From the IMG/VR virus record IMGVR_UViG_3300035040_000064: a stretch of 36,464 nt of DNA, one strand, 5' to 3'. The notes under the pieces were generated by a model. That model made no database searches and was not told where the DNA came from. It saw only the letters and a program-made list of their open reading frames with translations. This DNA comes from a virus. This document shows, piece by piece, positions 1 through 36,464 of the stretch (position 1 is its first letter; the number at the start of each line of letters is the position of its first letter). The translations under genes and the position numbers were made by a program.

Positions 1-127
1 GCTTTATTGACCAAGCTCAAACGCCAGGAAGATCACGCTTGGCTCAAAGAAGTTTCGTCCGTACCGGTGCAGCAGTCCCTGCAACACCTTCAGCGGGCTT
101 TTAATAACTTCTTCGCTAAACGAGCTG
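1..127. repeat. Terminal overlap copy 1 (identical to 36338-36464); signature of a circular contig
   Basis: I compared the two stretches base by base and all 127 nt are identical. The overlap lies inside one continuous reading frame (tnpB). Confidence 0.95.
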
Positions 128-972
128 GTTACCCATCGTTTAAGACAAAGCATGGGAGGCAGTCCATCACCTACGTTGCCAGTGGCTTTTCGTGGGATGG
201 AATAGCGCTGACCCTCGCCAAGATGAAAGAGCCATTGGCGATTCGCTGGTCACGTCCCATCCCCGAGGTGGCTAAAATCAACACCTGTACCGTCTCCAAA
301 GACACCGCAGGACGCTACTTCGTATCCCTGCTGTGCGACGATACCGTTACCCCCTTGCCGGAAGTCCCCGGTCAGGTTGGGATTGACCTGGGGCTGACCC
401 ACTTCGCCATTCTGTCCACGGGCGAGAAGATCGCCGCCCCAAACACCTTCCGCCGCAACGAAAAGAAGCTTGCGATGTTGCAGCGCCGCCTGAGCAAAAA
501 GCAAAAAGGATCAAAGAACCGAGCCAAGGCCAAGCAGAAAGTGGCCCGGCTCCATGCGAAAATCGCCGATACCCGGCAGGATTTTCTGCATAAGGTCTCC
601 ACCCGGCTCATTCGCGAGAACCAAGTGATCGCCGTTGAGACCTTGGCCGTGACCAATATGGTCAAAAACCGCCACCTGTCCAAGTCGATATCGGATGCAG
701 GATGGAGTGAATTTATCCGGCAACTCGATTACAAAGCCCGGTGGTACGGACGGACCCTGATCGGGATCGACCGGTGGTATCCGTCAAGTAAACGTTGTGC
801 GGACTGCGGCTACATCATGGGCAAAATGCCCCTGTCGTGCCGTCACTGGACGTGCCCTGAGTGCGGAACCGTCCATGACCGCGACGTCAACGCCGCCCGC
901 AACATACTGGCCGCAGGACATGCGGTTGCAGCCCTTGGAGAAGCGGTAATCCCGGAGCAGGCGCATGCCTGA
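1..972 (+). CDS. tnpB: TnpB, C-terminal part (combined protein about 379 aa)
   Basis: Motifs present: RuvC-I GIDLGL, RuvC-II VIAVETL, zinc finger CADCG...CPECG, RuvC-III HDRDVNAARNI. Stop TGA at 970-972. Confidence 0.9.
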   Translation, partial: ALLTKLKRQEDHAWLKEVSSVPVQQSLQHLQRAFNNFFAKRAGYPSFKTKHGRQSITYVASGFSWDGIALTLAKMKEPLAIRWSRPIPEVAKINTCTVSKDTAGRYFVSLLCDDTVTPLPEVPGQVGIDLGLTHFAILSTGEKIAAPNTFRRNEKKLAMLQRRLSKKQKGSKNRAKAKQKVARLHAKIADTRQDFLHKVSTRLIRENQVIAVETLAVTNMVKNRHLSKSISDAGWSEFIRQLDYKARWYGRTLIGIDRWYPSSKRCADCGYIMGKMPLSCRHWTCPECGTVHDRDVNAARNILAAGHAVAALGEAVIPEQAHA

Positions 973-1045
973 GTCGGCTCGCTTCGATGAATTGGGAATC
1001 CCCGTCCTTCAGGGCGGGGAGGATGTCAACTGGAAGATGAAATGA
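850..1045 (+). ncRNA. Predicted omega RNA (reRNA) scaffold overlapping the tnpB 3' end and right end, with the guide starting at about 1030; extent approximate
   Basis: This is inferred from position. In characterised TnpB systems the guide RNA comes from the 3' end of tnpB plus the right end and reads into flanking DNA. I did not compute a covariance or structure model. Confidence 0.35.
1000..1019 (+). repeat. Right-end subterminal imperfect hairpin CCCCGTCC-TTCA-GGGCGGGG
   Basis: Same architecture as the left-end hairpin. The top of the stem differs by a compensated change (CG/CG in the left end, CC/GG in the right end). Confidence 0.75.
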
Positions 1046-1073
1046 TACATTTACTTGAGAAGGAGTGGAACTG

Positions 1074-1247
1074 ATGATGACCATGGAGCTAATAATATTT
1101 GCTGGAGCGTTGGCCGTTATATGCATATTTGCAGCACTCAAGATTGCGTCAGATATTGTGGAAATCATTGTTGAGCGCAAAAGGCAAAAGCGCCTTGAGA
1201 GAGCGTATGACGATGCTATTGAAGCCATGAGGGCGAAGGATATATAA
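1074..1247 (+). CDS. Small single-pass membrane protein (hypothetical)
   Basis: ORF 1065-1247. AAGGAG at 1060-1065 precedes the ATG at 1074. Hydrophobic segment ELIIFAGALAVICIFAALKIA followed by a charged tail. Locally low GC. Confidence 0.55.
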   Translation: MMTMELIIFAGALAVICIFAALKIASDIVEIIVERKRQKRLERAYDDAIEAMRAKDI

Positions 1248-34606: not shown

Positions 34607-35625
34607 ATACTACAAAAGATCAGGAAGTAACACAGGACTACGCAATTTATAATAGTGATTGTATGGAGATATTGCCAGCGTTGCCGGAAAAGAGTGTGGA
34701 CTTATCTATATATTCTCCTCCATTCGCAGGCTTGTACAATTATTCTAGCTCTGAAAGGGACTTTTCAAACTGCGAATCAAAAGAGCAGTTTATGGAGCAA
34801 TACGAATATTTGGTTACAGAAATTGCCAGAGTTACAAAACCCGGCAGAATTAGCGCGGTACATTGTGCTGATGTTTTTGATAACTCGTGTTACCTATGGG
34901 ATCTACCCGGCGAAATAAGAAAGATCCACGAGCGCCACGGTTTTTATTACCGCAACCGCATAACTATCTGGAAAGAACCCCTCAAGGTGCGTATGCGCAC
35001 AATGGTTAAAAGCCTGATGCACAAGCTCATTGTTGAGGACTCCACACAATGCTTTACAGCTATGCCGGACTATGTACTGATCTTTACGCGCAAGGGAGAA
35101 AACGAAGTGCCGGTTACGCACCCCGAAGGCTTAAAAAGATACTTCGGTGCAACGCCTATCCTGCCCAACATTCTTCAGGCATTTAATAACGCCAACGGCA
35201 CAACTTTTAACGAGGAAGAACTGTGGGAGTATTTGAAAAACGAATATGTAGACCACAAAGACCCGAAAAGCAACAAGCTGAGCCATTACATTTGGCAGCG
35301 TTACGCTTCAAGCGTGTGGGATGATATCCGCATTGATAATGTACTGCCATACCGCGATACAAAAGAAGAGGACGACGAGAAGCACGTGCACCCTCTTCAG
35401 CTCGACGTAATAGATCGCCTGGTAGAGTTGTACTCCAACGAGGGAGAAACGGTATTAACCCCATTTATGGGAGTTGGTAGCGAAGTGTACAGCCCTGTTA
35501 GCATGGGCAGAAAAGCCGTGGGAGTTGAACTCAAAGACAGCTATTTTAAGCAGGCAAAGATAAATCTTAGCCATGCAAAAACCAGATTTGACAATATGCC
35601 AGGCCACCAGAAAGGGCTTTTTTAA
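34603..35625 (+). CDS. DNA methyltransferase, beta-class N4/N6 family (SPPF motif, probably N4-cytosine)
   Basis: Motif IV is SIYSPPFAGL near the N-terminus, and motif I is VLTPFMGVGSE near the C-terminus. No adjacent nuclease gene. Confidence 0.8.
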   Translation: MNTTKDQEVTQDYAIYNSDCMEILPALPEKSVDLSIYSPPFAGLYNYSSSERDFSNCESKEQFMEQYEYLVTEIARVTKPGRISAVHCADVFDNSCYLWDLPGEIRKIHERHGFYYRNRITIWKEPLKVRMRTMVKSLMHKLIVEDSTQCFTAMPDYVLIFTRKGENEVPVTHPEGLKRYFGATPILPNILQAFNNANGTTFNEEELWEYLKNEYVDHKDPKSNKLSHYIWQRYASSVWDDIRIDNVLPYRDTKEEDDEKHVHPLQLDVIDRLVELYSNEGETVLTPFMGVGSEVYSPVSMGRKAVGVELKDSYFKQAKINLSHAKTRFDNMPGHQKGLF

Positions 35626-35647
35626 CCGAAAAAAATATATTATCCCC

Positions 35648-35675
35648 TTGACAGTATGCGTGTGTATGATAAAGT
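35648..35675 (+). promoter_or_regulatory. Sigma70-like promoter, copy 2 of the conserved element (TTGACA-16nt-TAAAGT with an upstream TG)
   Basis: CCTTGACAGTATGCGTGTGTATGATAAAGTGTAC is closely similar to 33150-33181. Confidence 0.5.
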
Positions 35676-35717: not shown

Positions 35718-36137
35718 ATGGACAAAAGAGCCACACTATATCTTGAACCACACACCCGCCAACTGCTGAACGTGGGAGAAAACCGATCAGCCCGTGCTAA
35801 CGGGATTTTCTCGCGCTACATCGAGATCATCCGCAAGCACGTGCCTATGCTAGGCATTGACGAGTGGTGGTGCATCATCCAGTGCAACCGCGATCTTGAC
35901 GATACCGCCGACGTTACCCGCCAGGTGTACCGCAATCTGCTTGATGCGCCGCCGGAACATGACAACCTGATAAATATCGTTCGCGGTATGGGTTTTCTCG
36001 AACGCTGCGCAGTGGCAGAGATTGCCATGCAGGGGCAAAAGCTGGAGAGCATGGACGAGTTGGAGGGGTATTTTATCCTTTGTTCCGTAAAACCCCGTCG
36101 TTCACGGCGGGGATATAAGGAACGGTTTAGATGTTGA
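35718..36137 (+). CDS. Hypothetical protein; the last 20 codons or so are read from the IS left end
   Basis: GGAGA RBS. 139 aa. The C-terminal ...CSVKPRRSRRGYKERFRC is translated from the left-end hairpin region. Confidence 0.5.
   Translation: MDKRATLYLEPHTRQLLNVGENRSARANGIFSRYIEIIRKHVPMLGIDEWWCIIQCNRDLDDTADVTRQVYRNLLDAPPEHDNLINIVRGMGFLERCAVAEIAMQGQKLESMDELEGYFILCSVKPRRSRRGYKERFRC
36093..36112 (+). repeat. Left-end subterminal imperfect hairpin CCCCGTCG-TTCA-CGGCGGGG
   Basis: 8-bp stem with one T-G mismatch and a TTCA loop. It is near-identical to the right-end hairpin at 1000-1019. Confidence 0.75.
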
Positions 36138-36168
36138 CATTTAAACGAAAGAATGGTATCGTTTAAAC
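36134..36168 (+). promoter_or_regulatory. Sigma70-like promoter (TTGACA-17nt-TATCGT) overlapping a 9-bp perfect inverted repeat, directly upstream of the tnpB ATG
   Basis: TTGACA at 36134-36139, 17-nt spacer, TATCGT at 36157-36162. Inverted repeat TTTAAACGA (36140-36148) / TCGTTTAAA (36159-36167). No Shine-Dalgarno sequence precedes the ATG at 36170. Confidence 0.45.
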
Positions 36169-36169
36169 C

Positions 36170-36464
36170 ATGGATATTAAGCGAGCTTACAGATATCGGT
36201 TTTACCCTACTCCGGCGCAGGAAGAAATTTTAGCGCAGACGTTCGGCTGTGCTCGCTATGTCTATAACTACATGCTCCGCCTTCGGACGGATGCCTGGTT
36301 TGAGCGGGGAGAGCGCTTGGGATACCACGAGACCTCCGCTTTATTGACCAAGCTCAAACGCCAGGAAGATCACGCTTGGCTCAAAGAAGTTTCGTCCGTA
36401 CCGGTGCAGCAGTCCCTGCAACACCTTCAGCGGGCTTTTAATAACTTCTTCGCTAAACGAGCTG
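36170..36464 (+). CDS. tnpB: TnpB (IS200/IS605 OrfB-type RNA-guided nuclease), N-terminal part; continues at base 1 across the circular junction
   Basis: ATG at 36170. The translation MDIKRAYRYRFYPTPAQEEILAQTFGCARYVYNYMLRLRTDAWFERGERLGYHETSALLTKLK... is a typical TnpB N-terminus. The frame runs off the window end and is in phase with the ORF at 7-972. Confidence 0.9.
   Translation, partial: MDIKRAYRYRFYPTPAQEEILAQTFGCARYVYNYMLRLRTDAWFERGERLGYHETSALLTKLKRQEDHAWLKEVSSVPVQQSLQHLQRAFNNFFAKRA
36338..36464. repeat. Terminal overlap copy 2 (identical to 1-127)
   Basis: Exact 127-nt identity with the window start. Confidence 0.95.

What the first reader, a model, noticed from the sequence alone, without database searches (positions are those of the whole stretch)
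850..1076. Predicted omega-RNA, right-end boundary and guide, with an empty-site reconstruction that restores a plausible gene end
From memory of the IS608 paradigm, the right-end cleavage site lies about 10 nt 3' of the hairpin foot and ends in TCAA. The left-end site lies about 19 nt 5' of the left-end hairpin. Here TCAA occupies 1026-1029, exactly 10 nt after the right-end hairpin. The guide would then begin at 1030 (CTGGAAGATGAAATGA...). The TAM would be the T-rich flank at about 36069-36074 (TATTTT). Joining flank ...TAT TTT (36074) to 1030 gives an in-frame tail for the upstream ORF (35718...). That tail reads ...ELEGYF-LEDEMIHLLEKEWN and stops at TGA 1072-1074. This stop overlaps the ATG at 1074 of the next gene (TGATG coupling), and the AAGGAG RBS lies within it. 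Cutting one base earlier (36073) also gives an in-frame stop (YFWKMK). Both junctions are inferences. Only related IS-free genomes can fix the boundary.
Basis: inference. Interest (0 to 1): 0.65.

Follow-up and report, generated by a model that had tools for sequence, protein, structure and literature searches.

The report
TnpB insertion sequence ends and guide
This is an ordinary 1,290-bp TnpB-only insertion sequence in a phage genome: the predicted guide-RNA scaffold, right boundary and guide start hold up, but the left boundary, target motif and preferred "empty site" are 2 bases off.

Summary
The window is a circular phage-like genome of 36,337 bp plus a 127-bp overlap. It carries a 1,290-bp IS200/IS605-family element with tnpB only (36077..36337 + 1..1029).

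Right end: confirmed. In 9 independent copies of the same IS (≥99% nt), identity stops exactly after TCAA (1026-1029). About 100 relatives also end their conserved block at TCA(A/C/G).

ωRNA: supported. The best Rfam hit is HgcC, below its threshold (859-1042, E 7e-5). A covariance model built from 18 relatives without the window hits 905-1029 end to end (97.8 bits, E 1.4e-28). Across 37 pairs, 93% of cells are paired, against 41-48% in slid controls, and 23 pairs show compensatory changes.

Left end and TAM: corrected. Independent copies share sequence only from CCTTTG (36077). Five of six left flanks end in TTAT (36073-36076), not TATTTT.

Empty site: the correct join is 36076|1030, giving the tail ...YF-IWKMK* with stop at 1043-1045. 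A distant IS-free relative (L194) runs collinear through this join and keeps Ile-Trp.

No same-strain empty site was found. Flanks are shuffled among contigs. Expression and cleavage are untested. This is a new member of a known kind, of low interest.

The parts
35718..36076 (+). Native part of the interrupted phage ORF (119 codons plus AT of codon 120). As assembled, it reads on into the IS to a stop at 36135-36137, giving a 139-aa fusion protein.
   Evidence: Only the IS-fused 139-aa form is on record. Remote homologues are 126-146 aa.
36073..36076 (+). TTAT: target tetranucleotide of the IS and predicted TAM of TnpB. It belongs to the flank, not to the IS.
   Evidence: Five of six independent left flanks of the same IS end in TTAT. 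In L169 the IS abuts TCAA instead, so TTAT is not IS sequence. Relatives with this left-end type have TTAT(C) 16-17 nt 5' of the hairpin. The 4 nt 5' of the hairpin are AAAA, against AAAG in IS608, which pairs with TTAC.
36077..36169 (+). Left end (LE) of the IS, starting CCTTTGTTCC. It contains the guide tetranucleotide AAAA (36089-36092), the imperfect palindrome with a TTCA loop (36093-36112), and a σ70-like promoter site (36134-36162).
36170..36464 (+). 5' part of tnpB. The gene continues at window position 128, because 36338-36464 repeats 1-127.
1..972 (+). 3' part of tnpB. The protein is 379 aa in all. RuvC residues are D185, E269 and D351, the zinc-ribbon cysteines are C322, C325, C341 and C344, and the stop TGA is at 970-972.
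   Evidence: Pfam domains HTH_OrfB_IS605, OrfB_IS605 and Cas12f1-like_TNB. Matches ISDra2 TnpB 8H1J/8EXA at E 2e-83. Motif positions.
905..1029 (+). ωRNA scaffold, the part supported by covariation. Helices: 910-915/921-926, 932-936/992-996, 940-944/981-985, 952-956/973-977 (plus an inner hairpin 958-962/967-971), and the terminal hairpin 999-1020. A 5' extension to about 859 is possible but unproven.
   Evidence: Covariance model R1, built without the window, hits 905-1029 at 97.8 bits, E 1.4e-28. The Rfam HgcC hit covers 859-1042.
996..1029 (+). Right-end (RE) DNA signals for TnpA: GAAT (996-999), imperfect palindrome with a TTCA loop (1000-1019), a 6-nt linker, and the cleavage tetranucleotide TCAA (1026-1029). 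The IS ends at 1029.
   Evidence: IS608 geometry from PMC3201880.
1030..1045 (+). Predicted ωRNA guide, CTGGAAGATGAAATGA (16 nt; up to 1049 if 20 nt). Its first bases are also the native tail of the interrupted ORF: AT|C TGG AAG ATG AAA TGA = I W K M K stop.
   Evidence: The position follows from the RE boundary and the ISDra2 paradigm (PMC8612924). The 16-mer is unique in the window. Collinearity with the IS-free relative L194 is shown.
1074..1247 (+). Downstream phage gene (57-aa small membrane protein) with ribosome-binding site AAGGAG at 1060-1065. Its homologue directly follows the ORF homologue in the IS-free relative.

Best explanation
A 1,290-bp non-autonomous IS200/IS605-family element (tnpB only, no tnpA) sits in a phage gene. 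It inserted 3' of TTAT (36073-36076) without a target duplication. It spans 36077..36337 plus 1..1029 of the circular genome.

Its top strand carries the two subterminal hairpins and the TCAA right cleavage site that a Y1 transposase (TnpA) supplied in trans would use.

The last ~125 nt of the element (905-1029) overlap the 3' end of tnpB and encode the scaffold of an ωRNA. Transcripts that read out of the element add the flank from 1030 (CTGGAAGATGAAATGA...) as a guide of about 16 nt.

By analogy with ISDra2, TnpB loaded with this RNA would cut the IS-free donor joint TTAT+CTGGAAGATGAAATGA. Repair from an IS-carrying copy would then restore the element.

Shown here: the boundaries, the target motif, the conserved and covarying RNA structure, an intact RuvC triad, and the native adjacency of the two flanks. 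Inferred: transcription, guide length, TAM use and cleavage.
For: - TnpB identity: Pfam domains, E 2e-83 to ISDra2 TnpB structures, catalytic and zinc-ribbon motifs present.
- Right end: nine distinct flanks directly after TCAA in copies at least 99% identical. Family-wide conservation ends at TCA(A/C/G), including six copies in one Myxococcales genome (a metagenome-assembled genome) that have six different flanks.
- Left end: six distinct left flanks; homology starts at CCTTTG; five of the six end in TTAT. Relatives show the same TTAT(C) geometry.
- Guide/target pairing: AAAA with TTAT here, against AAAG with TTAC in IS608. This is the change that the pairing rule in PMC3201880 predicts.
- ωRNA structure: 37 pairs, 93.1% of cells paired against 41-48% in slid controls. 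There are 23 pairs and 109 cells with compensatory changes, against 20-30 cells in slid controls. No shuffle out of 500 reached the observed values.
- Covariance model built without the window: a single hit at 905-1029, 97.8 bits, E 1.4e-28.
- Best Rfam hit is HgcC, an RNA family that shares the UUCA-tetraloop right-end-like motif of tnpB 3'-end RNAs.
- Flank adjacency and frame: the IS-free relative L194 has the ORF homologue, then the 57-aa gene homologue, then the 91-aa gene homologue, and it aligns collinearly through 36076|1030.
- ISDra2 paradigm (3'-end RNA with a ~16-nt flank-derived guide; TAM equals the TnpA target): PMC8612924. A TTAT TAM is already known for ISDge10 TnpB.
Against: - There is no RNA-seq, so the transcript, its 5' end and the guide length are unverified.
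- The single-sequence fold of 850-1029 is no better than shuffles (z = -0.46).
- The Rfam HgcC hit is below the gathering score (29 bits against 50).
- No tnpA was seen in the element or in any copy, so the transposase source is unknown.
- No same-strain IS-free allele exists in the collections searched. The empty site therefore rests on the boundaries plus one distant relative (about 57% nt identity).
- One copy (L169) abuts TCAA rather than TTAT.
- Flanks occur in mixed combinations among contigs.
Confidence: 0.85

Rival explanations
1. One reading: the IS starts at 36075, the TAM is TATTTT (36069-36074), and the empty site is 36074|1030. That restores the ORF tail LEDEMIHLLEKEWN, with a stop that overlaps the next gene's ATG.
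For: The join is in frame and ends in a TGATG stop-start overlap. The IS-free relative L194 also has a stop-start overlap between the two genes. The 19-nt spacing is the IS608 value.
Against: - Independent copies of the IS share AT|CCTTTG only because TTAT is the target. In L169, homology starts at CCTTTG (36077) after a non-TTAT flank.
- Relatives place TTAT(C) 16-17 nt from the hairpin.
- L194 aligns without a gap through 36076|1030 and keeps ATx TGG. The 36074 join would be 2 nt short and out of frame with L194.
- A run of 14 codons without a stop is not rare by chance.
Confidence: 0.03
2. The window's left and right flanks were not originally adjacent. In this view the arrangement arose by recombination between IS copies in different phages, or by a chimeric metagenome assembly across the 1.29-kb repeat. 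No simple empty site would then exist.
For: - Flank combinations are mixed. Writing the left flanks as A, B and C and the right flanks as a to e, the observed pairings are A-a, A-b, B-c, B-b, C-d and C-e.
- Many contigs break at the IS.
- The related phage L001 shares 35751-36225 at 100% identity, but its right flank is unrelated.
Against: - The window's own pairing (A-a) was assembled in at least five samples and closes a 36.3-kb circle.
- The IS-free relative L194 shows the ORF homologue directly followed by homologues of the window's 57-aa and 91-aa genes. This pairing is therefore the ancestral gene order.
- Shuffling probably affects other copies, such as the right flank of L001.
Confidence: 0.07
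3. The conserved structure at 905-1029 is not a TnpB guide RNA. It might be a cis-regulatory element or sense-overlapping transcript that controls tnpB, or it might only reflect DNA-level TnpA signals plus coding constraint.
For: - Such 3'-end transcripts were first described as regulatory sotRNAs, and the function of HgcC was then unknown (PMC4615843).
- The terminal hairpin is also the TnpA-binding DNA hairpin.
- Part of the region is coding.
Against: - Four helices upstream of the DNA hairpin covary, including long-range pairs 932-936/992-996 that span the stop codon.
- The scaffold ends exactly at the transposon boundary, as in ISDra2.
- The protein is a close homologue of ISDra2 TnpB with an intact RuvC triad.
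- ISDra2 TnpB co-purifies with exactly this kind of RNA (PMC8612924).
Confidence: 0.05

Closest known systems
ISDra2 (Deinococcus radiodurans) TnpB with its ωRNA/reRNA, IS200/IS605 family
   Same: - TnpB is homologous over nearly its full length (E 2e-83 to 8H1J/8EXA).
- The RNA scaffold overlaps the 3' end of tnpB and the right end.
- The scaffold stops at the transposon boundary, so the flank supplies the guide.
- The TAM is expected to equal the TnpA target 5' of the left end (PMC8612924).
   Different: - This element has no tnpA.
- The target is TTAT, not TTGAT.
- Nothing has been tested experimentally here.
IS608 (Helicobacter pylori), the paradigm for end recognition
   Same: - Subterminal imperfect palindromes at both ends.
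- The right cleavage site is TCAA, cut 10 nt 3' of the hairpin foot.
- Insertion is 3' of a tetranucleotide without a duplication.
- A 4-nt guide lies 5' of the left hairpin: AAAA here, AAAG in IS608.
   Different: - The target is TTAT instead of TTAC.
- The gap between target and left hairpin is 16 nt instead of 19 nt.
- IS608 carries tnpA.
Rfam HgcC (RF00062) and haloarchaeal sotRNAs (RF02656), RNAs from the 3' ends of IS1341-type tnpB genes
   Same: HgcC is the best Rfam match, over the full model, including the UUCA tetraloop hairpin and the GGGGAGGAxGUCA tail (PMC4615843).
   Different: The score is 29.2 bits against a gathering score of 50, so by Rfam's criterion this is not a member. 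Those families were built from archaeal sequences.
ISDge10 TnpB
   Same: It uses a TTAT TAM (PMC11589281).
   Different: The sequence relationship to this TnpB was not tested. It is cited only to show that a TTAT TAM is already known.
TnpB genes in isolate phage genomes (for example Gifsy-1 GipA and Klebsiella phage vB_Kpn_ZCKp20p)
   Same: 354 phage records carry homologues at E ≤ 1e-30. The best reach 57-64% identity.
   Different: None is the same IS. The closest cellular relatives are betaproteobacterial, at 72-75% identity.

Membership tests
IS200/IS605 family (tnpB-only, IS1341-like element) | Encodes a TnpB/OrfB protein with HTH, RuvC-like and zinc-ribbon domains | tested here: met
   Pfam PF12323, PF01385 and PF07282 all score above their cut-offs. 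ISDra2 TnpB structures match at E 2e-83.
IS200/IS605 family (tnpB-only, IS1341-like element) | Subterminal imperfect palindromes at both ends, without terminal inverted repeats | tested here: met
   The left-end hairpin at 36093-36112 and the right-end hairpin at 1000-1019 are near-identical, each with a TTCA loop and one G·T position.
IS200/IS605 family (tnpB-only, IS1341-like element) | Inserts 3' of a specific tetra- or pentanucleotide, without a target-site duplication | tested here: met
   Five of six independent left flanks end in TTAT. The right flanks share nothing with the left flanks. The IS-free relative is collinear through the join.
IS200/IS605 family (tnpB-only, IS1341-like element) | Conserved right cleavage site at the IS boundary | tested here: met
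   TCAA at 1026-1029. Nine different flanks follow it directly, and the site is conserved across the family.
IS200/IS605 family (tnpB-only, IS1341-like element) | Y1 HUH transposase TnpA in the element (autonomous members only) | tested here: not met
   Only 93 nt lie between the left boundary and the tnpB start, and tnpB is the only gene in all copies. The element is non-autonomous, as IS1341-type elements are. The rest of the window was not scanned for tnpA.
TnpB ωRNA (OMEGA guide RNA) | Conserved RNA secondary structure that overlaps the 3' end of tnpB and the right end | tested here: met
   Covariation. The independent covariance model hits 905-1029 at E 1.4e-28.
TnpB ωRNA (OMEGA guide RNA) | The scaffold ends at the transposon boundary, so that flanking DNA encodes the guide | tested here: met
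   The model hit and the conservation both end at 1029, which is the IS boundary.
TnpB ωRNA (OMEGA guide RNA) | The RNA is expressed, bound by TnpB and carries a flank-derived guide of about 16-20 nt | not testable with these tools
   No transcriptome or biochemistry is available.
TnpB ωRNA (OMEGA guide RNA) | TAM-dependent, guide-dependent double-strand DNA cleavage, with the TAM equal to the TnpA target | not testable with these tools
   The TTAT TAM is inferred from the insertion sites and the ISDra2 rule. The RuvC triad D185, E269 and D351 is present.
Rfam HgcC (RF00062) | Score at or above the family's gathering threshold of 50 bits | tested here: not met
   29.2 bits, E 7e-5, full-length alignment to 859-1042. 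There was no hit at gathering thresholds.

The most novel reading that the evidence does not exclude
The IS spreads between co-infecting, otherwise distantly related phages by RNA-guided homing. TnpB with its ωRNA would cut an IS-free TTAT+guide site, and repair from an IS-bearing phage would copy the IS together with a stretch of left flank.

This would explain one observation. Phage L001 has neighbouring genes only about 45% identical in protein to the window's. Yet it shares 35751-36225 (326 nt of ORF plus the left end) at 100% identity and carries the IS at the same TTAT.

The evidence does not exclude this reading. Ordinary recombination between IS copies, or chimeric assembly, explains the mixed flanks at least as well. 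The L001 right flank also shows no homology to the window's, although homing would require such homology.
Probability: 0.1. Interest if true: 0.6.

Novelty: new member of a known kind. Interest (0 to 1): 0.22.

Why it matters
This gives a fully delimited, apparently active TnpB-only IS in an uncultured phage, with a predicted TTAT TAM, a 125-nt ωRNA scaffold and a defined guide. That is useful for annotating this genome: the 139-aa "gene" is an IS fusion, and its native end is ...YFIWKMK.

It could also serve as one more compact candidate TnpB/ωRNA pair. It does not change what is known about these systems.

The method point is that the IS608 spacing cannot be transferred by memory. Boundaries have to come from independent copies.

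The flank shuffling among phage contigs is a caution for metagenome assemblies. It is also a possible handle on IS-mediated phage mosaicism.

Tried and rejected
**Searches for an IS-free relative**
- INPHARED phages by blastn with the joined flanks: only an unrelated 62-nt hit.
- E. coli genomes: nothing.
- IMG/VR with the left-flank ORF: only two IS-bearing loci.
- IMG/VR with the 91-aa and 57-aa downstream proteins, and with a 57-aa/54-aa alignment: nothing.
- The 5.8-billion-protein search with the reconstructed ORF: only the IS-fused 139-aa cluster.
- All eight contigs that carry the 57-aa protein also carry the IS.
- No same-strain empty site was therefore found.
- The one IS-free relative came from a full HMMER search for remote ORF homologues.

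**RNA tests that were uninformative**
- Rfam at gathering thresholds gave no hit.
- The single-sequence fold of 850-1029 gave z = -0.46.
- The 5' stem 851-855/863-867 and the invariant GAC(883-885)/GUC(1025-1027) pairing have no covariation. They lie in strongly constrained codons, so the 5' end of the RNA was left open.

**Other points**
- I considered whether the left-flank ORF could be tnpA or part of the mobile unit. I rejected this: it has no Pfam hit, its homologues occur without the IS, and other copies of the IS have unrelated left flanks.
- I considered whether TTAT is part of the IS. I rejected this on three grounds: the L169 flank, the L194 alignment and the pairing rule between the 4-nt left guide and its target.

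Full report
**What the window is**

The first 127 bases repeat at the end of the window, so it is a circular genome of 36,337 bp. An ORF starting at 36170 wraps the junction and ends at 972. It encodes a 379-aa TnpB.
- It has the Pfam domains HTH_OrfB_IS605, OrfB_IS605 and Cas12f1-like_TNB.
- It matches the ISDra2 TnpB structures 8H1J and 8EXA at E 2e-83.
- The RuvC residues D185, E269 and D351 and the zinc-ribbon cysteines are present.
- The neighbouring genes are phage-like: SNF2/DEAD helicases, an N6/N4 methylase and DUF3310.

TnpB homologues occur in 354 isolate-phage records, including Gifsy-1 GipA. A TnpB element in a phage is therefore ordinary.

**Checking the observation**

- The right-end hairpin CCCCGTCC-TTCA-GGGCGGGG lies at 1000-1019.
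- TCAA lies at 1026-1029, so the cut is 10 nt after the hairpin foot.
- A near-identical left-end hairpin lies at 36093-36112.

**Right boundary and guide start: confirmed**

The same IS (≥99% nt identity; TnpB clusters P0003, P0004, P0123) occurs on many metagenome contigs. Identity to the window ends exactly after TCAA, and nine different sequences follow it.

In about 100 more distant relatives (38-77% TnpB identity), the conserved block ...GGAATCCCC-hairpin-GGGGAGGATGTCAA also ends at TCA(A/C/G). Six copies in one Myxococcales genome (a metagenome-assembled genome) have six different flanks right after it. The IS therefore ends at 1029 and the flank starts at 1030. The 16-mer at 1030-1045 occurs nowhere else in the window.

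**ωRNA: supported by comparison, not by expression**
- Rfam gives nothing at gathering thresholds.
- At relaxed thresholds the best hit is HgcC (RF00062). It covers 859-1042 over the full model, at 29.2 bits (gathering score 50) and E 7e-5. The sot0042 family matches the 3' hairpin.
- The sot RNAs are transcripts from the 3' ends of IS1341-type tnpB genes. HgcC shares their UUCA tetraloop, right-end-like motif (PMC4615843).
- I aligned 19 relatives that share the window's "short" architecture. RNAalifold predicts 37 pairs, and 23 of them show compensatory changes.
- Pair counting gives 93.1% of cells paired, against 41-48% when the partners are slid by 1-3 columns. There are 109 compensatory cells against 20-30 in the slid controls, and no shuffle out of 500 reached the observed values.
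- The well-supported helices, in window coordinates, are 910-915/921-926, 932-936/992-996, 940-944/981-985, 952-956/973-977 and the terminal hairpin. Four of them lie upstream of the DNA hairpin that TnpA would bind. One spans the tnpB stop codon.
- A covariance model built from 18 relatives, without the window, hits the window once: 905-1029, 97.8 bits, E 1.4e-28, end to end.
- The single-sequence fold is not better than shuffles (z = -0.46).
- The proposed 5' part (850-904) has no covariation support. It lies in the most constrained codons, so the 5' end stays open.

**Left boundary and TAM: corrected by 2 nt**

Independent copies have six different left flanks. Sequence shared with the window begins at CCTTTGTTCC (36077).
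- Five of the six flanks end in TTAT.
- The sixth (L169, inside a terminase-like gene) ends in TCAA. This shows that TTAT belongs to the flank and not to the IS.
- Relatives with the same left-end type (L095 at 77% identity; L012, L016, L017, L022, L056, L100, L103, L105, L107, L110) have TTAT(C) 16-17 nt 5' of the hairpin.

In IS608 the target TTAC is read by the tetranucleotide AAAG just 5' of the left hairpin. Changing that guide changes the target predictably (PMC3201880). Here the tetranucleotide is AAAA (36089-36092). The G-to-A change matches the C-to-T change in the target.

The spacing between target and hairpin is 16 nt here, not the 19 nt of IS608. TTAT is already a known TnpB TAM, in ISDge10 (PMC11589281).

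**Empty site**

With the corrected boundary the join is ...GGG TAT TTT AT|C TGG AAG ATG AAA TGA. The interrupted ORF then ends ...ELEGYF-IWKMK*, with its stop at 1043-1045. That is 28 nt before the ATG at 1074, and the AAGGAG at 1060-1065 lies between them.

No IS-free allele of this phage exists in the collections searched. A full HMMER search did find remote homologues of the ORF, 126-146 aa long.

The closest is P0134 (46% identity). It sits on a 907-nt ENA contig (L194) that has no IS. It is followed directly by homologues of the window's 57-aa and 91-aa genes.

The reconstructed site aligns collinearly with L194 through the junction, with ATC TGG in the window against ATA TGG in L194 (Ile-Trp in both). 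This result has two consequences:
- It shows that the two flanks are natively adjacent.
- It favours the 36076|1030 join.

The relative is distant (about 57% nt identity), so this is supporting evidence and not base-level proof. The base-level evidence is the comparison of independent IS copies.

**A caution: shuffled flanks**

Left and right flanks occur in mixed combinations among contigs. Writing the left flanks as A, B and C and the right flanks as a to e, the observed pairings are A-a, A-b, B-c, B-b, C-d and C-e.

The related phage L001 has helicase and methylase genes only about 45% identical in protein to the window's. Yet it shares 35751-36225 at 100% identity, carries the IS at the same TTAT, and then continues into an unrelated right flank.

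This may be recombination between IS copies in vivo, or chimeric assembly across a 1.29-kb repeat. I cannot tell which.

The window's own combination was assembled in at least five samples, closes a circle, and matches the gene order of L194. I therefore regard it as real.

**Mechanism**

By analogy with ISDra2 (PMC8612924), a TnpA supplied in trans would excise and insert the top strand, using the two hairpins, TTAT and TCAA. TnpB loaded with the 3'-end RNA, whose last ~16 nt come from 1030 onward, would cut the donor joint TTAT+CTGGAAGATGAAATGA. Repair from a copy that still holds the IS would then restore the element.

Shown here: the boundaries, the target motif, the RNA structure and the intact catalytic residues. 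Inferred: transcription, processing, guide length, TAM use and cleavage.

**Verdict**

This is a new member of a known kind. The TAM, the left boundary and the favoured empty-site tail are wrong by 2 nt. Interest is low.

Noticed in passing
window 1-127 and 36338-36464: The window ends repeat its first 127 bases, so it is a circular 36,337-bp genome. tnpB is split across the window ends.
   Followed up: yes
window 36134-36162: A σ70-like site (TTGACA, 17 nt, TG-extended TATCGT) lies inside the left end. It ends 7 nt before the tnpB ATG at 36170, and no Shine-Dalgarno sequence is present. This suggests a leaderless tnpB mRNA. Relatives show the same layout, for example L012 with TTTACA-N17-TATAAT-6 nt-ATG.
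   Followed up: partly
loci L001/L181-L183, L167/L168, L177-L186 compared with window 36040-36076 and 1030-1080: Left and right flanks of the same IS occur in mixed combinations. Writing the left flanks as A, B and C and the right flanks as a to e, the pairings seen are A-a, A-b, B-c, B-b, C-d and C-e. This is either recombination between IS copies in different phages or chimeric assembly across the 1.29-kb repeat.
   Followed up: partly
window 35751-36225 compared with L001 4034-4508: A phage whose helicase and methylase are only about 45% identical in protein shares 475 nt at 100% identity with the window. This stretch is the 3' part of the ORF plus the left end. The IS interior differs at 10 sites. 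A separate 52-nt island (35600-35651) is also identical.
   Followed up: partly
L001 5650-5663 compared with window 975-988: The first 14 nt of the L001/L182 right flank (GGCTCGCTTCtATG), which would be its guide, match an internal ωRNA segment of the IS (GGCTCGCTTCGATG) at 13 of 14 positions. The rough chance is about 4e-4 per flank. This is unexplained.
   Followed up: no
L169 300-345: One copy of the IS abuts TCAA rather than TTAT (...GTTTTATCAA|CCTTTG), with TTAT lying 3 nt further left. It sits at the 3' end of a terminase-like gene. It is either an atypical target or a small rearrangement.
   Followed up: partly
L177-L180, L182, L184-L186, around locus position 2400: In another genome the left end of the IS lies 7 nt upstream of the start codon of a 2,043-aa gene (Pfam LPD22) on the opposite strand. 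The insertion would separate that gene from its upstream signals.
   Followed up: no
L001 5713-5760: About 65 nt after the right end in L001 there is the 3' half of a tRNA on the minus strand (TGGTGGAGGCGATGGGGATTGAACCCACGACC). ARAGORN finds no complete tRNA. It looks like a phage attachment-site remnant.
   Followed up: no
window 36077-36120 compared with L007, L008, L034, L036: The closest cellular TnpB relatives (Polaromonas and Caballeronia, 71-72% identity) have a different left-end type (CTCCGAGAAA plus hairpin). The window's left end (CCGTAAAACC-hairpin-GGGGATATAAGG) matches the type seen with more distant TnpBs from Bacillota and Ktedonobacteria, and with L095. The ends and the tnpB gene seem to be exchanged as separate modules.
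   Followed up: partly
window 35718-36137: The called 139-aa protein is a fusion. Codon 120 (Ile) spans the junction, and the last 19 residues (LCSVKPRRSRRGYKERFRC) are encoded by the left end of the IS. They replace the native tail, in which Ile120 is followed by WKMK.
   Followed up: yes
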